A stretch of 64,000 bases of DNA from Minisyncoccota bacterium (GTDB lineage: Bacteria; Patescibacteriota; Minisyncoccia; Minisyncoccales; Minisyncoccaceae): NCBI GenBank assembly GCA_041651655.1, contig JBAZIW010000003.1:8917-72916 (forward strand), written 5' to 3'. The position numbers and the translations under genes were made by a program. Of the stretch, positions 15,102 through 56,515 are shown in pieces. The notes below the pieces were generated by a model, which was not told where the DNA came from, did not search any database, and was given only the letters and a program-made list of their open reading frames with translations. Each line of letters begins with the position of its first letter. Within the stretch, counting starts at the first letter, position 1.

Positions 15102-15199
15102 AGCCTTATATTAGTTCAAATATTAAATTTGTCAATATTTGATAAAACTTTATTGACAGAATAAAATCATGTATATACAATTAATTTGGAGGTTTAAAA

Positions 15200-15271
15200 A
15201 TGGCATCTGGTATACTAATTGCTCTTCTTGGTCTTGGAGCAGTAGCCTGGATAATAACAAGGAGACGCTAA
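15200..15271 (+). CDS. 23-aa hydrophobic peptide MASGILIALLGLGAVAWIITRRR
   Basis: TTGACA-N17-TACAAT promoter (~15153-15181). GGAGG lies 8 nt before ATG 15200. A hairpin plus T-run terminator is at ~15273-15306. Confidence 0.45.
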   Translation: MASGILIALLGLGAVAWIITRRR

Positions 15272-19865: not shown

Positions 19866-19943
19866 ACTGTTTGACAAAAACAATTTATAGGTATATTTTC
19901 CACTTAAGGTTTTGTGCTCGTTCACAACCTAGGAGGAATTAAA

Positions 19944-20144
19944 TTGGACTTAAAACAACTAAGGAAAGAGTTTTCTAATTACTTACTCATCGTTTTTCTT
20001 TCGGCCTTCTTTTCAGCAATGTTCGCACTATATATGTATGTCTGGGACGTACGAAGCGGATTGCCCATATTCTTCATCGGATTCTTTATCGCTTCCTTTG
20101 CAGTTCTTTCTCTAATCTTACCCAAGGCGCCGAAAAAAACTTAA
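19944..20144 (+). CDS. small membrane protein (TTG start)
   Basis: TAGGAGG lies 7 nt before TTG 19944. Two hydrophobic helices. A terminator hairpin AGAGG-ataa-CCTCT plus T-run follows. Confidence 0.5.
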   Translation: MDLKQLRKEFSNYLLIVFLSAFFSAMFALYMYVWDVRSGLPIFFIGFFIASFAVLSLILPKAPKKT

Positions 20145-48767: not shown

Positions 48768-50402
48768 ATGGCATATTATATTTTTGTCGGAGGCGGAGTA
48801 ATGAGCAGTGTTGGAAAAGGAGCCGCCACCGCTTCAATCGGAAAAATACTGCAAGGAAGAGGATTTAAAGTTTCGGCTATTAAAATTGATCCTTATATCA
48901 ATGTTGATGCCGGTACTATGAACCCCATTGAGCATGGAGAAACTTTTGTCACCAATGACGGAACCGAATGCGATCAAGATGTAGGTAACTACGAAAGATT
49001 CTTGAATATCGAATTATCAACTGATAATTACATGACCACCGGCAGAGTTTATCAAACCGTTATTCAAAAAGAAAGGAATCTTGAATTCAACGGCCGCTGT
49101 GTAGAAGTGGTTCCCGACATTCCCAATGAAGTAATTTCTCGAATTGAAAAAGTAGCCAAAAAAGACAAAGCTGATTTTGTGATGATTGAAATCGGAGGAA
49201 CAGTGGGGGAATACCAAAATCTTCTTTTCTTGGAAGCAGCCAGAATGATGAAATTGAAACATCCCAAAAAGGTTCTTTTTGCATTGGTTACTTATTTACC
49301 GACCATTAAGACAATCGGAGAAATGAAAACCAAACCATCTCAAACTTCAGCCCGACTATTAAATGAAGCGGGAATTCAACCTGACTTCATTTTAGGCCGA
49401 GCTTCGGTTTCATTAGACGAACCGAGAAAAAGGAAAATTTCTGTTTTTTGTAATTTAGATACAAAGGATGTTATTTCCGCTCCCGACGCCGATTCAATCT
49501 ATGAAATACCTTTCAATTTTGAAAAAGAAGGATTAGGAGACAGAATCTTAAAGAAGTTAAAATTAAGATCCAAAACCCATGACATGAAAGAGTGGGATAA
49601 GATGGTTAAGACGATTAAAAAAGAAAAGGAAGATGTGAAGATTGGAATCGTCGGAAAGTATTTCGAATCAGGAGAGTTCTCTTTAACCGATTCATATATC
49701 TCTGTCATCGAAGCGGTAAAGCATGCTGCCTGGGCCAATAACAAAAACCCGGATATTCATTGGTTATCAGCTCAGAAGTTTGAAACTGGAGACAAAACTG
49801 AATTAAATAAGTTAAAAGAATACGACGGTATTATCGTTCCCGGAGGATTCGGTACCAGAGGAACGGAAGGGAAGATAAAGGTGATTGAATATTGCAGAAA
49901 AAATAAAATCCCTTTCTTGGGACTATGTCTCGGACTACAATTAGCCACCATTGAATTTGCAAGAAATGTTTGCGGTATCAAAGATGCAACTTCAAGAGAG
50001 TTTGATGCTAAAGCCAAAAACCCGGTAATTGATTTGATGGAAGAACAGAAAGATTTAATGAAGAAGCACAACTACGGCGGAACAATGCGTTTAGGTTCTT
50101 GGGATTGCAAAGTCATAAAAGGAACTAACAGCTACAGAGCCTATAAATCAGAATTGATTTCAGAGAGACATCGCCACCGCTATGAAGTCAATAATGATTA
50201 CCGAGATTTATTGATTTCTAAAGGATTGATAATCGGAGGAATTAATGAAAAAAAAGACTTAGTTGAAATTGTTGAATTGAAAGACCATCCGTTCTTTGTC
50301 GGAGTTCAATTCCACCCGGAATTAAAATCAAGACCTTTGTCTCCACATCCATTGTTTAAGGAATTTATAAAAGTAGCGGGAAACAAAAAACCAGAGGCCT
50401 AA
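48768..50402 (+). CDS. pyrG: CTP synthase
   Basis: YIFVGGGVMSSVGKG, the GATase triad context GLCLGLQ, and FVGVQFHPE. Confidence 0.97.
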   Translation: MAYYIFVGGGVMSSVGKGAATASIGKILQGRGFKVSAIKIDPYINVDAGTMNPIEHGETFVTNDGTECDQDVGNYERFLNIELSTDNYMTTGRVYQTVIQKERNLEFNGRCVEVVPDIPNEVISRIEKVAKKDKADFVMIEIGGTVGEYQNLLFLEAARMMKLKHPKKVLFALVTYLPTIKTIGEMKTKPSQTSARLLNEAGIQPDFILGRASVSLDEPRKRKISVFCNLDTKDVISAPDADSIYEIPFNFEKEGLGDRILKKLKLRSKTHDMKEWDKMVKTIKKEKEDVKIGIVGKYFESGEFSLTDSYISVIEAVKHAAWANNKNPDIHWLSAQKFETGDKTELNKLKEYDGIIVPGGFGTRGTEGKIKVIEYCRKNKIPFLGLCLGLQLATIEFARNVCGIKDATSREFDAKAKNPVIDLMEEQKDLMKKHNYGGTMRLGSWDCKVIKGTNSYRAYKSELISERHRHRYEVNNDYRDLLISKGLIIGGINEKKDLVEIVELKDHPFFVGVQFHPELKSRPLSPHPLFKEFIKVAGNKKPEA

Positions 50403-50410
50403 ACCTCTGG
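50391..50410. terminator. bidirectional hairpin between pyrG and rpmA
   Basis: CCAGAGG-cctaaa-CCTCTGG with flanking A- and T-rich runs. Confidence 0.6.
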
Positions 50411-50424
50411 TTTCTCTTTTTAAT

Positions 50425-50703
50425 TTATTTAGCGTCTACATTCACTACCTTAGCCAATCTCTGTGAACCATCAAATATCTTCTTTCTCTTGGTTTCAAAA
50501 GAAACAAGACCGTCCTTTACAGCGTAAAGAGTGTTGTCTTTGCCCATCTTAACGTTGTGACCGGCAATGAATTTAGAACCTCTTTGGCGTATGATAATAG
50601 AACCAATTTTAGCTTTTTGGCCTTCGAATAGTTTAACTCCTAAATATTTTGGTTGGGAATCTCTTCCCAAGCGGCTTGTACCCGCGGCTTTGGTTGTTGC
50701 CAT
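50425..50703 (-). CDS. rpmA: 50S ribosomal protein L27
   Basis: [20 protein letters not shown]...[14 protein letters not shown] is typical L27. Not adjacent to rplU here. Confidence 0.93.
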
Positions 50704-50768
50704 TTTGACTCTTTGTCGATTTTACCTTAATATATATGTATTAATCGGCAGTTATTATTAACAAAGAA

Positions 50769-50954
50769 ATGTTAACAAAAATAATGGATTTTGTCAAAGA
50801 AAACCAGGACAAAATAGTCCTTATTGTCTGTATCCTCCTGATTGCTCTTTTGTGCTTTTTTCTAGGATATATCTTTGCTAAAACTCAAGAAAAAGAGCCG
50901 ATAGAAATAATTGAAGGAAAGAGCTTAATACTAATACAAAATGAAAATTCCTAA
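50769..50954 (+). CDS. small membrane protein
   Basis: 61 aa with one TM (IVLIVCILLIALLCFFLGYIF). Overlaps the uppS start. Confidence 0.45.
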   Translation: MLTKIMDFVKENQDKIVLIVCILLIALLCFFLGYIFAKTQEKEPIEIIEGKSLILIQNENS

Positions 50955-51657
50955 TCACGTCGCAATCATCCCGGACGGCAACAGACGCTGGGCCAAGAAG
51001 AAAAACTTAGCTTCGTTTGTCGGTCACCAGAAAGCTTTTATCGGCCACCAGAAAGGAGCCGGAACAGCAGAAGAAATAATCGAAAAAGCCTTGGAAATGA
51101 AGATTCCATATTTAACAATCTGGGGCAGTTCTTTGGATAATATTTTAAAAAGATCTAAGAGTGAAGTTAATTGCCTTTTAAAGATCTTTGAAAAAGAATT
51201 CGATAAATTAGCTGACAACGAAAAGGTTCACAAAAACAAGGTCAAGGTAGAAGTAATAGGGAAGTGGAGAGAATATTTTCCCGCGTCAACGATTAAGGCA
51301 ATCGAGAACGCAATTGAAAAAACAAAAAACTACGACAAATATTTAGTTACTTTTTTAATGGCCTACAATGGAACCGATGAAATGATTGATTGCATTAAAA
51401 AGATAAAAGAAAAGAGGGGAGACGTGAATGAAAAAACTATATTAGAAAATCTCTGGACTAAAGATTTGCCTCCCGTTGATTTATTAATCAGGACCGGCTG
51501 CGAAAACGATCCTCATCTTTCCGCCGGCTTTATGATGTGGCACACTGCTTACTCTCAATTATATTTTACTAATAAATATTTTCCTGACTTTAAGGAGAAA
51601 CAATTCGAGGAAGCAATAAAAGATTATTCCGAAAGAGAAAGAAGAGGTGGAAAGTAA
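50941..51657 (+). CDS. uppS: undecaprenyl/isoprenyl diphosphate synthase (cis-prenyltransferase)
   Basis: HVAIIPDGNRRWAKK, DLLIRTG and ERRGG. Contains an in-frame GHQKA-FI-GHQKG tandem duplication. Confidence 0.9.
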   Translation: MKIPNHVAIIPDGNRRWAKKKNLASFVGHQKAFIGHQKGAGTAEEIIEKALEMKIPYLTIWGSSLDNILKRSKSEVNCLLKIFEKEFDKLADNEKVHKNKVKVEVIGKWREYFPASTIKAIENAIEKTKNYDKYLVTFLMAYNGTDEMIDCIKKIKEKRGDVNEKTILENLWTKDLPPVDLLIRTGCENDPHLSAGFMMWHTAYSQLYFTNKYFPDFKEKQFEEAIKDYSERERRGGK

Positions 51658-51711
51658 TCAATTGACTTTTTAGTATTTTATATTACTATATAGCCAGCCC
51701 ATAACAACTAA

Positions 51712-52290
51712 ATGGGAGTGATGACAATGATGGCGTTTTACTACGTACCTTTACAAGAGAACAGGATGAATTTCAGCTTGAGCCGTCATCCTACTTTCGA
51801 AAAATATATCGTCAAAGATGGCGTTGGAGTCCTTGTCTGTTATGACAACGAAAGCGACTACAATGAGGAGGCTATAAGAACAAACAACTACGGAGTTCAC
51901 GATACCTGGACTATCATCGAAGGAGAGAATGTCAAAGACGTTATCAAAAAATTCTATCTTTTCTTTGAGGGAACACATATCGGAGGAAATCACATTGACT
52001 CCAAGGCTCTCCGAATAGACAGGGGAAGAAGGATTGTAAAAATTCCTTACTGCCACTTAATGGGAAGAAGTAAAATAGATCAAAGATTTACTTGCGGCCC
52101 AGATGGAATTTTCGGAGGATGCGTTCTTGGAGGAATCACAGATCTTCCAGACGGGGATTGTGCCATGAAAAGATTTTGCCACATCGGTGCATTCGATTTT
52201 TCAAAAAGACTTCCCAAAGGATACGTCATTAAAAAAGTCGTGGTTGAAAACATTGTTTACAACTTTGCCGACACGAGAGCATTAGCTTAA
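51712..52290 (+). CDS. hypothetical protein (higher GC)
   Basis: 192-aa ORF preceded by a TTGACT...TTACTAT promoter-like sequence. Cys/Gly-rich C-terminal half. Confidence 0.5.
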   Translation: MGVMTMMAFYYVPLQENRMNFSLSRHPTFEKYIVKDGVGVLVCYDNESDYNEEAIRTNNYGVHDTWTIIEGENVKDVIKKFYLFFEGTHIGGNHIDSKALRIDRGRRIVKIPYCHLMGRSKIDQRFTCGPDGIFGGCVLGGITDLPDGDCAMKRFCHIGAFDFSKRLPKGYVIKKVVVENIVYNFADTRALA

Positions 52291-52374
52291 ACCAGTAATT
52301 ATTTTTCTGGTTTTTATTTTATTTATAACTTCTTGACAAAATATACTCCTCGTTTTATAATACTCTCAGTAACT

Positions 52375-52731
52375 ATGAACGAGATAAGTAAAGATCCAAG
52401 ACGGGGAACCACAGTTCCTCACAGAATGGTTTGCATATCGAACACCGGCCTTGTTCCTGTCAATGAGATCCCCAAGGATCCAAACCGGCAGGGAAACGAA
52501 CTCTCCATCGCAATGGGGTTTCCGGTAGAAAGGCATGAATATCTTCTCCGGTTAGGAAGACTGAGGGAGATGGTAGAGAATGGTGACATTCGTCCAGCTA
52601 GGGACAACGCCATCAACATGGGCATCGAAGCATCTGATGCCGCAAGCGTTATCGCTTCGGGAATTCTGAAGTATAACGAAGAAATAAATTTGGGAGGCAT
52701 GTTTCCAGAAGTGAGAACATGTTCCTCCTAA
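52375..52731 (+). CDS. hypothetical protein (higher GC)
   Basis: TTGACA 52333-52338, N17, TATAAT 52356-52361, then ATG 52375. This is the first ATG of track ORF 52333..52731. Internal repeat NEISKDPRRG / NEIPKDPNRQG. Confidence 0.45.
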   Translation: MNEISKDPRRGTTVPHRMVCISNTGLVPVNEIPKDPNRQGNELSIAMGFPVERHEYLLRLGRLREMVENGDIRPARDNAINMGIEASDAASVIASGILKYNEEINLGGMFPEVRTCSS

Positions 52732-53070
52732 ATTTTCATCAAACACAGCGAGGGGATACACTTGACAGGCCGCAAAGCCTGATATATTATTAAATCATAA
52801 ACGTCGGACAATGTAGGTTAAGCGACATTTCAGGGGGCTTAAAAGCCCGTGTTACATATCTATCATTGTTTTACACGTTTTAGCCCTAAAATCACGACCT
52901 TTTAAAATGCGTTTATAGAAATCATTTGATAACTATATCACCTGTATTTATTCCCTAAAAATATTTTTGTGAAAAAAAATAAAAATTAAAAATAATTTGT
53001 TTAACAATACATCAATGTTTTACAATTAAGCTCTAATTTACGTTTCTACAATAATAATGATCATAACCTC

Positions 53071-54030
53071 ATGCAAAAATCCAATAAACCAATCATAAAA
53101 CATATTCCTGACTTCTTAGATTATTGTGAAATAGAAAAAGGTCTATCTGATAACACTCAGAAAAACTACGGCCGCTATTTAAAGAAGTTTACCGACTGGC
53201 TGAAGGCCACCAAAAAAGAAAATATGTTGCCGCATGATTTAACTCCCGAAGAAATTTGGAACTATAGATTGTTCTTAGCCAGGTTTAAAGATAAGAACCA
53301 GGACAAGCCGTTATCCAAGCTGACCCAAAACTATTACCTAATCGCCCTACGATCGCTTTTGAGCTTCTTCACTGATAAAGATATTATCTCTTTGCCGGCT
53401 GATAAGATACAATTGCCCAAGGATGCCAAGAAAGAAAAAACTGTGAAGTTTTTGACCTTGGACCAAATAGAAAAACTACTCCTTGCTCCCAATACCGAAA
53501 CTAATGACGGGCTACGTGACCGAGCTATTCTGGAATCCCTCTTTTCGACCGGCCTAAGAATCGCCGAATTAGTAGCTCTTAATAAAGAGCAGTTTAAGGC
53601 CTTAAGTGATAAGAAAGACCTTGAACTTGGCATTATCGGCAAAGGCAAGCATCCCCGTACTGTTTACTTCTCGGAACGAGCCCTGGATTGGGTCAAAAAA
53701 TACCTTAAAACCCGTGATGATGAGGATAAAGCTCTCTTTATTCATTATCGGGCCAGAACCGCCTCAGAAGGCCGTTTAACGGCTCGTTCCATTGAAAGAA
53801 TCGTGAAGAAGTATGCCACGCTCGGCAATATTCCTTTCTTTACCACTCCGCATACTTTAAGGCATAGTTATGCCACGGATTTACTCGGCCAAGGAGTTGA
53901 TTTAAGAACCATTCAAGAATTCTTGGGACACAAAAATATTGCCACCACTCAGATCTATACCCACGTGACCAATAAGAGACTGAGAGATGTTCACCGACAA
54001 TTTCACAGCGGCAAAAACATGAAAAACTAA
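53071..54030 (+). CDS. tyrosine recombinase (XerC/XerD family)
   Basis: C-terminal catalytic region HTLRHSYATDLLGQGVDLRTIQEFLGHKNIATTQIYTHV, and an N-terminal SAM-like domain. Confidence 0.88.
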   Translation: MQKSNKPIIKHIPDFLDYCEIEKGLSDNTQKNYGRYLKKFTDWLKATKKENMLPHDLTPEEIWNYRLFLARFKDKNQDKPLSKLTQNYYLIALRSLLSFFTDKDIISLPADKIQLPKDAKKEKTVKFLTLDQIEKLLLAPNTETNDGLRDRAILESLFSTGLRIAELVALNKEQFKALSDKKDLELGIIGKGKHPRTVYFSERALDWVKKYLKTRDDEDKALFIHYRARTASEGRLTARSIERIVKKYATLGNIPFFTTPHTLRHSYATDLLGQGVDLRTIQEFLGHKNIATTQIYTHVTNKRLRDVHRQFHSGKNMKN

Positions 54031-54149
54031 TCTCGCCTCTTCCCCTTTAAATATGTTCTGATATAAATGTCGCACAATATTGTTGCATATTTATAATTTA
54101 ATAGATATATTAAAAACAGTACATTTGTACTAGGAGGAAAACAGACACC

Positions 54150-54179
54150 ATGACGTGTACCGTTGCAGTCGTTGGCTAA
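54150..54179 (+). CDS. candidate 9-aa peptide MTCTVAVVG
   Basis: TTGCAT-N17-TATATT promoter (54083-54111). 5' palindrome AGTACATTTGTACT (54118-54131). AGGAGG at 54132-54137. Downstream hairpin plus T-run at ~54234-54252. Confidence 0.35.
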   Translation: MTCTVAVVG

Positions 54180-54320
54180 GTTGTGAAGCAGATGTGTGGG
54201 CGGACGAAACAAACAAGTTCGCCCCACTAAAATACCGCATTAGGCGGTTTTAATTTGCACTTTTTTTAATTAATGATATATTGAAAAAAGTACATTGTAC
54301 TGGGAGGGATAAGCAAAACC

Positions 54321-54347
54321 ATGTGTTGTATTGCACTCGTTTGCTGA
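54321..54347 (+). CDS. candidate 8-aa peptide MCCIALVC (paralog of 54150..54179)
   Basis: TTGCAC-N16-TATATT promoter (54255-54282). Palindrome AGTACATTGTACT (54289-54301). GGGAGG at 54302-54307. Confidence 0.35.
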   Translation: MCCIALVC

Positions 54348-54466
54348 GCACCGACACCCAATCTGCTCGTCAAGGTGTATGCCTTGATATGGTCTGAATC
54401 GGAGAAAACATTTCAATAATGTTTATCTCTTGAAACATATGCACTGCAAAAATAGGAGGAATAAGC

Positions 54467-54529
54467 ATGTCTCCATCTCCTGGATATGGGTGCCTCGTCA
54501 CCCGTTTCACAGCGATCGTCGTCCGATGA
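54467..54529 (+). CDS. candidate 20-aa peptide MSPSPGYGCLVTRFTAIVVR
   Basis: AGGAGG lies 7 nt upstream of ATG 54467. An 8-bp hairpin GGGAAGCA..TGCTTCCC lies downstream. Confidence 0.3.
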   Translation: MSPSPGYGCLVTRFTAIVVR

Positions 54530-54802
54530 TTGTTACCTGATCTAAAAAAGGACGACTTGAAAGCACTCGTACCGAATGGGAAGCACGATTTATACATCTT
54601 GCTTCCCCATGAACATCTTGCAAAAAATCAAAAAATAAGTATAATGATTTCAGTACACCAAAGGAGGTGAAGATTATTTCTTTATTTGAATTCATCGTCA
54701 TAATGCGTGAAAACGAAAAGACAAGACCGGTATAGATTATCGAATAACTCACTCTTTTTTATGGAAGATACAATCTTCCGAATCTCACAAAATTGTTCCG
54801 CT

Positions 54803-55525
54803 TTAGGCGGATTTTATTAACTTCAAAAATTCATCAGCTTTGAGAGAAGCGCCTCCGACCAAAACCCCGTCCATTTTAGCTTCAACAATATATGAATGGA
54901 CATTATTTGAATCAACGCTTCCTCCGTATAGAATCCTGATATTTTCAGCAACTTCTTTATTAAACTTCTTGATCAAGAAATCCTGAATAAAAGATTTAAT
55001 TTCTCTAATATCTGAAACTTCGGCAAACTTTCCCGTTCCGATTGCCCAAACCGGTTCGTAAGCTAAAATAATTTTCTCGGGATTAGAAATATTATTCAAA
55101 CAAACATCTAATTGTTCTGATAGGACCTCAAAAGTCTTGCCCTCTCCCCTCTCTTCCCCTTTTTCACCGATACAGAGAATCGGGGTTATTTTAGACTCTA
55201 AAACCTTAATTAATTTAGAATTGATTTCTTCGTTAGTTTCCTTGAAAATATTCCTTCTTTCCGAATGGCCCAGGATAACATATTTAACTCCCAAGTCTTC
55301 AAGCATGGAAACAGAGTTTTCTCCGGTAAAAGCTCCTTCTTTTTCAAAACAATTCTGAGCGCCGAATAGAATTCGGTCATCAATCAAAGAATTGATAAAA
55401 ACAGACGGCGGACAAATAATGACCTCTTCATCATTAACTCCGTTAATTACTTTTTCCAATAATTCTTTAGCCTCGGCAAGGCTTTTAGGATTACACTTCC
55501 AGTTGGCAACGATTAATGGTTTCAT
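54803..55525 (-). CDS. tpiA: triosephosphate isomerase
   Basis: VANWKCN, ILGHSERR, YEPVWAIGTG, GGSV...GGASL. Confidence 0.94.
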   Translation of the reverse strand: MKPLIVANWKCNPKSLAEAKELLEKVINGVNDEEVIICPPSVFINSLIDDRILFGAQNCFEKEGAFTGENSVSMLEDLGVKYVILGHSERRNIFKETNEEINSKLIKVLESKITPILCIGEKGEERGEGKTFEVLSEQLDVCLNNISNPEKIILAYEPVWAIGTGKFAEVSDIREIKSFIQDFLIKKFNKEVAENIRILYGGSVDSNNVHSYIVEAKMDGVLVGGASLKADEFLKLIKSA

Positions 55526-55531
55526 ATATTT

Positions 55532-56515
55532 TTATTTATTTTGATTTCTTAAAAATAAAGCTTGATCTTCAGGATAGATTGATAAGACTTTCATTTGTGA
55601 TTCTATCTCGAATCCGGCCAGAATCGATACTCTCGGAAAAATAGAAAAATACCAATGGAAGTATGGATATTCTTTATCCAGTGGAGCGGTATGCAGATAG
55701 AAATTATATGACGGATTATTCAATCCTTTATACATTCTTAAAAGAACTTCTTTAAATATTTCTGCCAAGCTTTCTTTTTCTTTTTCAGTAATTTCTTCAA
55801 ATCTCGAAGCATGTTTTTTGGGAGAAATAATAGTCTGATATACAAGCTTGGGAGCAAAAGGAATATAGGCGATAAAATCTTTATTCTCAAAAACAATTCT
55901 TTCTTTTAGATTCTTTTCTTCTTTATTGATTTTGCATCTAAGGCATTCATTATTTTTTTTAAAATAATCGTTGTGCTTATCCAGCATTACTTTCAAATCT
56001 TTATCAATTAACGGAGCGGTAAAAATCTGAGAATGAGGATGGGGTTGACTACTAGCAGCTTCTTTTCCGTGATTATGAATAATAACGACATTCTTCACAA
56101 AGTCGTAATTCTTGAAATCAATGATTCTTTCTTGGAAACAAGTAAAGACTTCTTTGATTTTATCTATCGGCAAAAGAGCTAAGCTTTTTTCATGATCTTT
56201 CGTAATAACCAATTCATGAAATCCTTTAGATTTAATCTTGGAATAAATATCTGTTTCTTTTTCTTTTCCGCTTTCCTGAGAAGGGATAAAAATGGGATAT
56301 TTGTTGGGAATAACAGCCGTTGTCCAATCATTGAGATCCTTGGTATCACTCTTAACTCCGTTTGAATAAACCAAAATAGGCTTTTCCTGTTTTTCAATAT
56401 TACAAAAAGGACAATCAGATGACTTGTCTTTTAATCTTTCGGCCCGGAGCGGAGAAATAATGACCCAATCGTCATTTAAAGAATCGTATCTCAATTCAGT
56501 TTCTTTTTTATCCAT
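55532..56515 (-). CDS. galT: galactose-1-phosphate uridylyltransferase-like (HIT superfamily, GalT branch)
   Basis: N-terminal CPFC zinc motif and the HxHxQ active site (QPHPHSQIF). Confidence 0.78.
   Translation of the reverse strand: MDKKETELRYDSLNDDWVIISPLRAERLKDKSSDCPFCNIEKQEKPILVYSNGVKSDTKDLNDWTTAVIPNKYPIFIPSQESGKEKETDIYSKIKSKGFHELVITKDHEKSLALLPIDKIKEVFTCFQERIIDFKNYDFVKNVVIIHNHGKEAASSQPHPHSQIFTAPLIDKDLKVMLDKHNDYFKKNNECLRCKINKEEKNLKERIVFENKDFIAYIPFAPKLVYQTIISPKKHASRFEEITEKEKESLAEIFKEVLLRMYKGLNNPSYNFYLHTAPLDKEYPYFHWYFSIFPRVSILAGFEIESQMKVLSIYPEDQALFLRNQNK

What the first reader, a model, noticed from the sequence alone, without database searches (positions are those of the whole stretch)
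54083..54760. Paralogous micro-gene cassettes encoding 8-9 aa Cys-containing hydrophobic peptides (MTCTVAVVG / MCCIALVC) beside the tyrosine recombinase
Two cassettes share the same build. Cassette 1: promoter TTGCAT-N17-TATATT at 54083-54111; palindrome AGTACATTTGTACT at the predicted transcript start; SD AGGAGG; spacer of 12 nt; tiny ORF at 54150-54179. Cassette 2: promoter TTGCAC-N16-TATATT at 54255-54282; palindrome AGTACATTGTACT at the predicted start; SD GGGAGG; spacer of 13 nt; tiny ORF at 54321-54347. The peptides align as C-[T/C]-[V/I]-A-[V/L]-V-[G/C]. The nucleotide differences give conservative amino-acid changes, which argues for selection on the peptide. A third unit (TTGCAA-N16-TATAAT at 54618-54645) also starts with AGTACA followed by AAGGAGG. 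A 20-aa ORF (54467-54529) with a well-spaced AGGAGG lies between the units. No plus-strand gene lies downstream, so these are not leaders of an operon. Candidate roles: secreted or modified signalling peptides, RiPP-like or microcin-like precursors, ribosome-arrest peptides, or miniature toxins. The 5'-terminal hairpin could act as an mRNA stabiliser or as an operator.
Basis: partly seen in the sequence, partly recalled or inferred. Interest (0 to 1): 0.65.

Follow-up and report, generated by a model that had tools for sequence, protein, structure and literature searches.

The report
Conserved micro-gene cluster in a Patescibacteria genome
The 772-base gap between a recombinase gene and tpiA in this tiny-genome (Patescibacteria) bacterium holds real, conserved mini-genes for peptides of only 8-21 amino acids. 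They use a classical strong ribosome-binding site that the organism's ordinary genes almost never use, and what the peptides do is still unknown.

Summary
The window comes from a Minisyncoccales (Patescibacteria/CPR) chromosome. The cassettes lie in the spacer between convergent xer and tpiA, at a GC-skew and gene-strand switch that looks like the replication terminus.

In about 25 related species the same spacer keeps a promoter, a 5' hairpin, a strong SD and a tiny ORF. This is family A, 8-9 aa in 17 of 21 cassettes: MCCIALVC, MTCCIALIC, MSCSIVLIC, MMYILLAG and others. Two further micro-ORF families are also kept:

B and C show clear coding signatures. A shows a weaker one: it keeps its ATG, its frame and its hydrophobicity. 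Cys is common in A but not universal.

RNA hairpins are also under selection, at the 5' end and across the ORF stops. Ordinary genes in the window lack SD sequences and many look leaderless, so these SD-led mini-genes are exceptional.

The best reading is that A is a stand-alone micro-protein gene that makes a short hydrophobic peptide. A cis-acting ribosome-sensor role is the main rival. Function is unproven. Nothing matches Rfam, and no larger decayed gene is present.

The parts
54064..54080 (+). Invariant 17-nt motif TAAATGTCGCACAATAT just after the xer stop. It marks the start of the variable spacer and is a probable Xer-related (dif-like or regulatory) site.
   Evidence: Present with at most 2 mismatches downstream of xer in 30 of 34 species loci chosen by Xer homology, with unconserved flanks. 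It recurs next to xer in many metagenome contigs.
54083..54111 (+). Promoter of cassette 1 (TTGCAT-N17-TATATT)
   Evidence: Sequence. It aligns with the promoter of cassette 2 and with those of orthologous cassettes, which have the consensus TGATATATT extended -10. No transcript data.
54118..54131 (+). 5'-terminal hairpin of the cassette 1 transcript
   Evidence: Pattern unique to this spacer. It is the only structure RNAalifold recovered as a consensus, and 2 of its 4 pairs show compensatory changes across 11 cassettes.
54132..54137 (+). Shine-Dalgarno AGGAGG of A1
   Evidence: It lies 12 nt before the ATG. Ordinary genes of the window lack an SD.
54150..54179 (+). Micro-ORF A1, MTCTVAVVG (9 aa)
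   Evidence: It belongs to family A, which is conserved in relatives.
54194..54252 (+). 3' hairpin (54194-54227) and intrinsic terminator (stem 54234-54248 plus T run) of cassette 1
   Evidence: Fold; terminator scan.
54255..54282 (+). Promoter of cassette 2 (TTGCAC-N16-TATATT, with TG extended -10)
54289..54301 (+). 5'-terminal hairpin of the cassette 2 transcript
54302..54307 (+). Shine-Dalgarno GGGAGG of A2
54321..54347 (+). Micro-ORF A2, MCCIALVC (8 aa)
   Evidence: An identical peptide occurs in L041 with synonymous codon changes (GCC, CTT, TGT). Close variants occur in L008, L010, L166 and others.
54346..54430 (+). Conserved structured RNA after A2. Hairpin P1 GAGCA/TGCTC (54346-54368) starts inside the A2 stop codon. 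It is followed by P2 (about 54369-54388) and P3 (54401-54430).
   Evidence: Stems are kept while their inserts vary in length in L008, L010, L014, L015, L125, L164 and L165. An alternative arm pair, GTCGCA/TGCGAC, occurs in L011, L104 and L163. These stems were read by eye from the alignment. RNAalifold on the 11-cassette alignment did not recover P1, and no pair-count test was run on P1-P3.
54454..54529 (+). SD AGGAGG (54454-54459) and micro-ORF B (54467-54529), MSPSPGYGCLVTRFTAIVVR
   Evidence: Orthologs in 7 relatives have in-frame indels. pN/pS is 0.31 in frame against 0.98 and 1.58 in the shifted frames. Third-position diversity is 6.0 against 2.8 and 1.8.
54518..54556 (+). Hairpin GTCGTCC...GGACGAC that encloses the stop codon of B
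   Evidence: 91% of cells are paired and 2 of 7 pairs show compensatory double changes. Slid controls give 20-54% paired.
54578..54608 (+). GC-rich hairpin without a U tract that ends unit 2, just before the unit 3 promoter
   Evidence: Inverted repeat I5; fold. Every ortholog has an analogous GC hairpin at this position.
54618..54645 (+). Promoter of unit 3 (TTGCAA-N16-TATAAT), highly conserved
   Evidence: CTTGCAAAAAATCAAAAAATnAGTATAAT is kept in relatives.
54661..54670 (+). Extended Shine-Dalgarno AAGGAGGTGA of C
54673..54735 (+). Micro-ORF C with an ATT start: (I)ISLFEFIVIMRENEKTRPV
   Evidence: In 9 orthologs pN/pS is 0.30 against 0.67 and 2.14 in the shifted frames. Diversity by codon position is 4.5 / 2.1 / 9.1. 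The ATT is invariant, and a distant ortholog (L018) starts with ATG at the same place.
54763..54816 (+). Conserved hairpin GGAAGAT..ATCTTCC (54763-54779) followed by GAATC, then a bidirectional terminator (54797-54811 plus T run) shared with tpiA
   Evidence: The hairpin arms vary in relatives (GGGAAAT..ATTTCCC, GGGAGAG..TTCTCCC).

Best explanation
The spacer is a cluster of genuine, separately promoted micro-protein genes: A1; A2 followed by B on one transcript; and C.

Each A cassette is a complete minimal gene. It has a sigma-70-type promoter with an extended -10, a transcript that begins with a short hairpin, a strong SD, an 8-9-codon ORF, and a hairpin or terminator that begins at or just after the stop codon.

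Shown here:
- The cassette architecture, and its conservation in about 20 related Minisyncoccales genomes.
- Clear coding signatures for B and C.
- Preservation of start, frame, length and hydrophobic character for A.
- Compensatory changes in the 5' hairpin and in the hairpin enclosing the B stop codon.
- The rarity of SD sequences at the window's ordinary genes.

Inferred:
- The 5' hairpin stabilises the mini-mRNA against 5'-end-dependent decay.
- The SD recruits 30S subunits in a cell whose other mRNAs are mostly leaderless or SD-less.
- The A product, a 7-9-residue, very hydrophobic and often thiol-bearing peptide, is itself the functional molecule. It would act in trans at the membrane or envelope, or as a short hydrophobic signal, rather than only as a cis leader.

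The actual target and role of A, B and C are not known.
For: Conservation:
- A tiny ORF sits at a fixed place after the 5' hairpin and SD in 20 of 21 cassettes. All indels are in frame, and 17 ORFs are 8-9 codons long.
- The same peptide, MCCIALVC, is encoded with three synonymous differences in L041.

Coding signal for A:
- In frame, 84% of residues are A/V/I/L/F/M/C. The other two frames give 63% and 52%, and 2000 shuffles give 58 +/- 3% with a maximum of 69%.
- pN/pS is lowest in frame: 0.59 against 0.72 and 0.97.
- The motif P-V-S-A shared by L012, L125 and family B differs only at third codon positions.

Stand-alone character of A:
- A is monocistronic and runs straight into a terminator or GC hairpin in window cassette 1, L013, L166 and L167, so it cannot be merely the leader of B.
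- Blocking the A ORF with a ribosome footprint does not change the predicted accessibility of B's ribosome-binding site in any of 6 orthologs.

Context:
- The neighbours B and C are clearly coding.
- The SD design is exceptional here. Only 5 of 61 long ORFs have any SD core. By contrast, 22 of 61 have a -10-like box 4-12 nt before the start, against 3.8 +/- 1.9 at random positions.
- The same hairpin-plus-SD design serves other small genes at 19931 and 15188.
- There is no Rfam family, tRNA or tmRNA in the spacers.
Against: - There is no expression, ribosome-profiling or peptide evidence.
- The coding signal for A is modest and the sequences are not phylogenetically independent.
- The SD-to-ATG spacing for A is long, usually 11-14 nt after GGAGG.
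- One cassette is only MCCC (L137) and one has lost its ATG (L162), so the peptide is dispensable in some lineages.
- Related genomes with xer and tpiA directly abutting have no cassettes at this locus.
- I know of no precedent for an 8-aa peptide that is directly translated and acts in trans.
- No receptor, exporter or modifying gene lies nearby.
- RNA hairpins overlapping the stop codons fit a cis-acting role equally well.
Confidence: 0.45

Rival explanations
1. A is a cis-acting sensor ORF. The ribosome pauses while translating or terminating on it. The pause could come from scarce Cys-tRNA at the tandem Cys codons, or from the nascent hydrophobic peptide as with erm, cat and cmlA leader peptides. 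The paused ribosome then melts the hairpin that begins at the stop codon. This would change the folding, stability or read-through of the transcript, and so the expression of B, C or the downstream RNA.
For: - The length of 4-10 codons is typical of regulatory leader ORFs.
- Tandem Cys codons at positions 2-4 are present in 12 of 21 A ORFs, and they are all that is left in L137 (MCCC).
- Two consecutive Cys codons are enough for Cys-responsive attenuation by mycobacterial sORFs, where stalled ribosomes block structures that sequester the downstream RBS (10.1101/834739).
- [IV]-A-[LV]-V in A resembles the IAVV stalling motif of the erm(A) leader (motif cited in PMC12698558; the full ErmAL1 sequence is from my memory only).
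- The stop codon or last codons of A, B and C sit in conserved hairpins.
- A2 is followed by conserved structured RNA and then by B, whose SD can pair with its own codons 2-5.
Against: - Constrained folding shows no coupling between ribosome occupancy of A and the accessibility of B's RBS.
- A is monocistronic in several genomes.
- There is no Cys-metabolism, resistance or any other ordinary gene downstream, only micro-ORFs and then a terminator.
- Cys is absent or single in several members.
- The hydrophobic tail is conserved, which a pure Cys-codon sensor would not need.
Confidence: 0.25
2. The functional products are the RNAs. These would be small structured or dual-function sRNAs. The 5' hairpin, SD and mini-ORF of A would serve only as a 5' stabiliser module, with ribosome binding protecting the RNA, so the A peptide itself would be irrelevant.
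For: - Several hairpins are conserved and some show compensatory changes.
- Recurrent RNA modules are shared between cassettes of different genomes.
- The long SD-ATG spacing of A is suboptimal for translation.
- The coding signal for A is weak.
Against: - The ATG, the reading frame, the 8-9-codon length and the in-frame hydrophobicity are preserved far beyond what composition predicts.
- RNAalifold finds no consensus structure across the ORF itself.
- B and C on the same RNAs are unambiguously coding.
- There is no Rfam match.
Confidence: 0.15
3. A cassettes are young, fast-turnover ORFs in a hypervariable spacer at the terminus next to a Xer site. They would be tolerated rather than selected, arising by de novo birth or through recombination debris.
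For: - Spacer length varies from about 10 to about 1170 nt among relatives.
- Cassette number and content change between close species, including duplication in the window, loss in L009, L055 and L162, and other peptide types in more distant genera.
Against: The family persists across lineages whose Xer proteins are only about 84-98% identical. Synonymous divergence is near saturation (pS about 0.6), yet the start, frame, length and character are retained.
Confidence: 0.1
4. A and B are precursors of ribosomally made, post-translationally modified peptides (RiPP or microcin type).
For: The peptides are rich in Cys, Ser and Thr.
Against: - The peptides are 8-21 aa long, too short to hold a separate leader and core.
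- The neighbours are xer, tpiA, galT-like, map, adk, secY, uppS and pyrG. No modifying enzyme or dedicated exporter is among them.
Confidence: 0.03

Closest known systems
Bacterial sORF-encoded small proteins (50 aa or fewer) with their own promoter, RBS and terminator
   Same: These are complete transcription and translation units. They are conserved across species and show purifying selection (clear for B and C). They are unannotated because they fall below gene-caller length limits.
   Different: At 8-9 aa, family A is far shorter than characterised trans-acting small proteins. C uses an invariant AUU start. The host genome otherwise hardly uses SD sequences.
Drug-dependent arrest leader peptides of erm, cat and cmlA genes (for example the erm(A) leader with stalling motif IAVV)
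   Same: They are SD-led ORFs of about 8-19 codons. They have an aliphatic tetrad (VAVV, IALV, VALV) near residues 4-8. Hairpins overlap the end of the ORF. A stalled ribosome near the 5' end is also known to stabilise such mRNAs (established knowledge).
   Different: There is no resistance gene or other regulated gene downstream. The exact IAVV or IFVI motifs are not present. The ORF stops right after the tetrad. Stalling has not been tested.
Polycysteine sORF attenuators of mycobacteria ('Cys ribulon', 10.1101/834739)
   Same: Very short ORFs with two or three consecutive Cys codons at the head of a transcript.
   Different: The mycobacterial sORFs are leaderless and precede cysteine-metabolism operons. 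The ORFs here are SD-led, precede only micro-ORFs, several members lack tandem Cys, and folding gave no sign of RBS control.
Short hydrophobic peptide pheromones of Firmicutes (SHP/Rgg, XIP, enterococcal pheromones and inhibitor peptides)
   Same: The active molecules are 7-8-residue, strongly hydrophobic peptides encoded by tiny genes that diversify as paralogs. The cassettes of a distant relative (L021: MKKLGIMVIAIAMLVVGFAMA, MKKLAIIVVGMAMA) look like SHP or signal-peptide-type precursors.
   Different: The known pheromones are cut from precursors of 20 aa or more and sit next to a receptor (Rgg or RRNPP) gene. Here the ORF is already at mature length and no receptor gene is adjacent.
5' stabiliser elements of Gram-positive mRNAs (5'-terminal hairpins; SD-like 'STAB-SD'; ribosome stalled on ermC)
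   Same: A hairpin at the very 5' end is immediately followed by a strong SD. This is the classic arrangement that blocks 5'-end-dependent RNases (established knowledge).
   Different: This has not been tested in Patescibacteria. Here the element precedes a conserved translated micro-ORF rather than a long mRNA.

Membership tests
sORF-encoded small proteins | Start codon with RBS, open frame and stop conserved across species | tested here: met
   A is kept in 20 of 21 cassettes. B is kept in 8 genomes and C in more than 15.
sORF-encoded small proteins | Codon-level signature of purifying selection | tested here: met
   C gives pN/pS 0.30 and B gives 0.31, both with strong third-position variation. 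A gives only 0.59 against 0.72 and 0.97 in the other frames, but its in-frame hydrophobicity is 84% against 58% in shuffles. The feature is met for B and C and is weak for A.
sORF-encoded small proteins | Evidence of translation or of the peptide | not testable with these tools
   No Ribo-seq, MS or RNA-seq data were available.
erm-type translational attenuator (arrest leader peptide) | Short SD-led leader ORF | tested here: met
   ORFs of 8-9 codons, 7-14 nt after GGAGG.
erm-type translational attenuator (arrest leader peptide) | Known arrest motif (IAVV, IFVI, RLR and similar) | tested here: inconclusive
   Only similar tetrads occur: VAVV, IALV, VALV, IAFI. The motif is taken from PMC12698558.
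erm-type translational attenuator (arrest leader peptide) | Downstream resistance gene whose RBS is sequestered by pairing with the leader region | tested here: not met
   Only micro-ORFs and a terminator lie downstream, and tpiA is on the other strand. The accessibility of B's RBS is unchanged by ribosome-footprint constraints.
Polycysteine Cys-responsive attenuator sORFs | Two or more consecutive Cys codons | tested here: inconclusive
   Present in 12 of 21 A ORFs. Absent in MTCTVAVVG, MMYILLAG, MTIFSLIAL, MCNVALVA, MICVVLIC, MSCSIVLIC, MGCSIILIC and MYCIALVA.
Polycysteine Cys-responsive attenuator sORFs | Leaderless sORF as the first gene of an operon of cysteine-related genes | tested here: not met
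   The 5' UTR is about 30 nt with a hairpin and an SD. No cysteine-related gene lies downstream.
SHP / enterococcal-type hydrophobic peptide pheromones | Precursor of 20 aa or more that is processed to a hydrophobic 7-8-mer | tested here: not met
   The ORF itself is 8-9 codons long.
SHP / enterococcal-type hydrophobic peptide pheromones | Adjacent RRNPP/Rgg receptor gene | tested here: not met
   The neighbours are xer, tpiA, galT-like, two ORFs with no Pfam match, uppS and others. The rest of the genome was not examined.
Type I toxin-antitoxin | Hydrophobic toxin long enough to span a membrane (about 19-60 aa) plus an antisense RNA | tested here: not met
   A is 8-9 aa. No conserved antisense feature was found. 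There is only one weak promoter-like site on the minus strand, and the minus-strand ORFs are not conserved.
RiPP / microcin precursor | Leader-plus-core peptide with a neighbouring modification or export gene | tested here: not met
Any Rfam RNA family, tRNA or tmRNA | Covariance-model or ARAGORN match | tested here: not met
   Nothing in the spacer at the gathering threshold. At E<=10 the best E-value was 0.53 and every match scored far below its family's gathering score. There was also nothing in the spacers of 12 relatives.

The most novel reading that the evidence does not exclude
Family A peptides are made at their final size (7-9 residues, with no precursor processing) from dedicated mini-genes. 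They function as hydrophobic, thiol-bearing effectors or signals of an episymbiotic Patescibacteria lineage. This would make them among the shortest stand-alone protein-coding genes known. Together with B and the AUU-start C they would form an SD-dependent 'micro-proteome' that is translated by a different initiation route from the rest of a largely leaderless genome.
Probability: 0.3. Interest if true: 0.8.

Novelty: new variant of a known kind. Interest (0 to 1): 0.6.

Why it matters
Patescibacteria (CPR) genomes are small and poorly understood, and their small-protein content is essentially uncharted, because gene callers ignore ORFs this short.

This work found three micro-ORF families conserved across species. 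They combine a canonical, maximal SD, a 5' hairpin and, in one family, an AUU start codon, in a genome whose ordinary genes are SD-less or leaderless.

If the peptides are made, three things follow:
- The practical lower size limit of bacterial genes moves down.
- The locus provides a natural system for comparing SD-led and leaderless initiation in CPR.
- The peptides become candidate short hydrophobic molecules for symbiont physiology or host interaction.

A cultured relative, Minisyncoccus archaeiphilus, has analogous cassettes at the same locus, so the question can be tested experimentally.

Tried and rejected
- Same-strain contigs (L001-L007) were 100% identical across the spacer, so they carried no information.
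- Rfam (gathering threshold and E<=10), ARAGORN, and Rfam on 12 relatives found no known RNA in the spacers.
- Single-sequence folds gave only modest z-scores of -1.4 to -2.8. RNAalifold over the A cassettes supported only the 5' hairpin.
- The idea of a decayed larger gene or an antisense gene was rejected. The minus-strand ORFs of 48-81 aa and the 46-aa plus-strand ORF carry stops or frame breaks in relatives.
- Alternative genetic code (UGA read as a sense codon) was considered and rejected. The window has long table-11 ORFs, and cassette 1 ends in TAA.
- The attenuator model (a ribosome on A opening B's RBS) was tested by constrained partition-function folding in 6 orthologs and showed no effect.
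- The Cys-sensing idea was weakened by Cys-free members of family A.
- A regex and six-frame search for A-like and C-like ORFs in all fetched loci found them only in this spacer. The loci cover only a few kb around xer.
- A literature search on Minisyncoccus and Microsyncoccus turned up nothing on these ORFs.
Full report
**1. Observation.**

- Cassette 1: TTGCAT-N17-TATATT at 54083-54111, AGTACATTTGTACT at 54118-54131, AGGAGG at 54132-54137, and ORF 54150-54179 (MTCTVAVVG).
- Cassette 2: TTGCAC-N16-TATATT at 54255-54282, AGTACATTGTACT at 54289-54301, GGGAGG at 54302-54307, and ORF 54321-54347 (MCCIALVC).
- A third promoter at 54618-54645 is followed by AGTACA and AAGGAGG.
- A 20-aa ORF lies at 54467-54529.

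The features are well beyond chance. The palindrome pattern occurs twice in 64 kb against 0.00 expected. TATAWT-N5-9-AGTACA occurs three times, all here, against 0.08 expected. The two cassettes align from the -35 box through the stop codon and diverge afterwards. Cassette 1 ends in a canonical terminator at 54234-54248 plus a T run. The last unit ends at the bidirectional terminator 54797-54811.

**2. Context.**

The finding lies in the 772-nt spacer between a convergent XerC/D-type tyrosine recombinase gene (53071-54030, plus strand) and tpiA (54803-55525, minus strand). The surrounding genes are housekeeping: pyrG, uppS, galT-like, map, adk and secY. Cumulative GC skew peaks at about 52-54 kb and gene orientation switches there, as expected for a replication terminus.

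Contigs encoding proteins identical to the window's were also identical across the spacer, so they gave no information. A scan of species-representative genomes with the Xer protein returned 34 loci with 66-98% identity. All are Minisyncoccales/Paceibacterota (Patescibacteria), and they include the cultured Minisyncoccus archaeiphilus. The xer-tpiA arrangement is conserved, but the spacer varies from about 10 to about 1170 nt.

**3. The tiny ORFs are conserved.**

In the close relatives, the spacer carries the same build: promoter, 5' hairpin, AGGAGG and a tiny ORF. These relatives came from three sources: the genome scan, a metagenome scan anchored on a conserved 16-mer, and eight further contigs reached through Xer homologs.

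Family A members are MCCIALVC (window, L041), MCCVALVC, MCCIAFIC, MCYCVALVA, MYCIALVA, MTCCVVIVR, MSCSIVLIC, MSCCIIVVL, MSCCVALVL, MGCSIILIC, MTCCIALIC, MICVVLIC, MCNVALVA, MMYILLAG, MTIFSLIAL, MCDCVVLICCVPIL, MCCCSCPVSA and MCCC, plus the window's MTCTVAVVG.

Of 21 recognisable cassettes, 20 keep an ATG and an in-frame stop, and 17 are 8-9 codons long. One (L162) has lost the ATG.

The coding evidence for A is as follows.
- All indels are in frame.
- L041 encodes the window's exact peptide with three synonymous differences.
- In frame, 84% of residues are A/V/I/L/F/M/C. The other frames give 63% and 52%, and shuffles give 58 +/- 3%.
- pN/pS is lowest in frame, at 0.59 against 0.72 and 0.97.

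This signal is real but modest, and the sequences are related by descent. Cys is frequent, with tandem Cys in 12 of 21, but it is not universal.

**4. Two more micro-ORF families.**

It is conserved as MSPSPGYGAL..PVSAIVVR in seven relatives, with in-frame indels. Its pN/pS is 0.31, against 0.98 and 1.58 in the shifted frames, and diversity is concentrated at third positions.

The "third unit" encodes family C at 54673-54735, (I)ISLFEFIVIMRENEKTRPV. It follows a perfect extended SD (AAGGAGGTGA) and has an invariant ATT start. A distant ortholog (L018) has ATG at the same position. Its pN/pS is 0.30 against 0.67 and 2.14, and diversity by codon position is 4.5 / 2.1 / 9.1.

Longer ORFs on either strand of the spacer are broken in relatives, so there is no decayed larger gene.

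**5. RNA-level constraints.**

- The 5' palindrome is an RNA hairpin. Its arms co-vary and its loop ranges from 3 to 11 nt, and 2 of 4 pairs show compensatory changes.
- By eye, the A2 stop codon lies in the 5' arm of a hairpin kept in relatives, either GAGCA/TGCTC or GTCGCA/TGCGAC. Two more stems with variable inserts follow it. RNAalifold on the 11-cassette alignment did not recover this hairpin, and I ran no pair-count test on it.
- The stop of B lies inside a hairpin with 91% pairing and 2 of 7 compensatory pairs.
- Each unit 2 ends in a GC hairpin without a U tract, just before the unit 3 promoter.
- Nothing matches Rfam, tRNA or tmRNA.

**6. These genes are unusual for this genome.**

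Of the 61 long ORFs in the window, only 5 have any SD core in the right place. By contrast, 22 have a -10-like hexamer 4-12 nt before the start codon, against 3.8 +/- 1.9 at random positions. Many genes therefore look leaderless. A 5' hairpin followed by an SD is also used at 19931 (66 aa), and an SD alone at 15188 (23 aa) and 1392 (78 aa). In this organism the canonical strong SD is reserved for a minority of mostly small genes.

**7. Mechanism.**

Two readings compete.

(a) A is a stand-alone micro-gene whose hydrophobic, often thiol-bearing peptide acts in trans.
- A is monocistronic and runs directly into a terminator or GC hairpin in window cassette 1, L013, L166 and L167.
- Its hydrophobic tail is conserved.
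- Its neighbours B and C are true coding genes.

(b) A is a cis-acting ribosome sensor.
- It has the length of a leader ORF.
- It often has tandem Cys codons. Mycobacterial polycysteine sORFs attenuate downstream genes in this way (10.1101/834739).
- It carries an aliphatic tetrad reminiscent of the erm(A) leader's IAVV motif (PMC12698558).
- Hairpins overlap its stop codon.

Several observations weigh against (b). Partition-function folding with ribosome-footprint constraints did not change the accessibility of B's RBS in any of six orthologs. No ordinary gene lies downstream. Several family members lack tandem Cys.

I therefore favour (a) at about 0.45 and (b) at about 0.25. A purely RNA function gets about 0.15, neutral turnover about 0.1, and a RiPP precursor about 0.03. 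The 5' hairpin most likely stabilises the transcript. This is an inference from established Gram-positive 5' stabilisers and was not tested here.

**8. Novelty and verdict.**

This is a new variant of a known kind, sORF-encoded small proteins. What sets it apart:
- the extreme shortness of family A;
- the AUU-start family C;
- an SD-led design in an otherwise SD-poor CPR genome;
- a location in a hypervariable terminus spacer beside xer.

Function remains unproven, and experiments in the cultured relative are feasible.

**9. Side finding.**

The 17-nt motif TAAATGTCGCACAATAT (54064-54080) follows xer in 30 of 34 species, with unconserved flanks, and in many metagenome contigs. In M. archaeiphilus and L029 it lies inside tpiA coding DNA.

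A diverged direct copy, with the core GTCGNACAATGT, lies 35-282 nt upstream of xer in all 26 loci tested. In the window it is at 52799-52814, downstream of a strong promoter-like site. It is probably the Xer target, a regulatory site, or both. The cassettes sit between it and tpiA.

Noticed in passing
window 54064-54080; also L008-L041 just downstream of xer: The invariant 17-nt motif TAAATGTCGCACAATAT lies right after the xer stop in 30 of 34 related species, with unconserved flanks. It also lies next to xer in many metagenome contigs. In Minisyncoccus archaeiphilus (L028) and L029 the exact 16-mer lies inside the tpiA coding sequence. It is probably a dif-like Xer site, although it is shorter than a classical 28-nt dif.
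   Followed up: partly
window 52799-52814 (AAACGTCGGACAATGT), with promoter-like TTGACA 52762-52767 and TGATATATT 52780-52788: A second, diverged copy of the motif in direct orientation (core GTCGNACAATGT) lies 35-282 nt upstream of the xer start in all 26 relatives tested, so xer is bracketed by two copies. In the window this copy is just downstream of a strong promoter-like site and is followed by a hairpin (GGGGCTTAAAAGCCC). It could be a leader or small RNA of xer, or an autoregulatory site.
   Followed up: partly
window about 50000-56000: Cumulative GC skew peaks at about 52 kb, and genes switch from the plus strand to the minus strand at about 54 kb. This is the signature of a replication terminus. 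In the complete M. archaeiphilus genome the homologous locus lies at about 48% of the chromosome.
   Followed up: partly
whole window (61 ORFs of 120 aa or more): Ordinary genes almost never have a Shine-Dalgarno sequence (5 of 61). A -10-like hexamer ends 4-12 nt before the start codon in 22 of 61, against 3.8 +/- 1.9 at random positions, so the genome looks largely leaderless or SD-independent.
   Followed up: yes
window 54673-54735: A conserved 20-aa ORF (family C) with an invariant ATT (AUU) start codon follows a perfect extended SD, AAGGAGGTGA. AUU starts are rare and are discriminated against by IF3, which hints at regulation by the initiation factor.
   Followed up: yes
window 15188-15271; 19931-20144; 1392-1635: Other SD-led small genes. 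One encodes a 23-aa single-helix peptide, MASGILIALLGLGAVAWIITRRR. One encodes a 66-aa membrane protein with a TTG start, preceded by promoter TTGACA-N17-TATATT and a 5' hairpin. One encodes a 78-aa protein.
   Followed up: no
L021 5230-5500; L028 4990-5040 and 5290-5390; L018 5010-5080: In more distant genera the same xer-tpiA spacer carries other SD-led micro-ORFs. Microsyncoccus has signal-peptide-like MKKLGIMVIAIAMLVVGFAMA and MKKLAIIVVGMAMA as tandem paralogous cassettes. M. archaeiphilus has MGGFGSCIILA and a C-like 28-aa ORF. L018 has an ATG-start C homolog, MLTLYCFVKKLVENWRTKPIR.
   Followed up: partly
L011 5590-6099; L165 3060-3200; L128 and L012 spacers: There is a further micro-ORF type, A' (MLCVCNATISVSAAQSSC, MLLACNTTVSVVLPTIC, MVVLSYPTVSVCIVTC). 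It is followed by a recurrent RNA module, TTGAACC..ACGGAGGTTCGTAAGCCATAAGC. The motif [PT]-V-S-[AV] plus a hydrophobic tail recurs in several otherwise different micro-ORFs.
   Followed up: no
L011 748-865: An Rfam LOOT RNA (RF03000, 75.6 bits) lies upstream of the locus in one relative.
   Followed up: no
L045, L047, L140 (metagenome contigs): These contigs each carry two exact copies of the 16-mer. In L045 the two copies flank a xer homolog.
   Followed up: no
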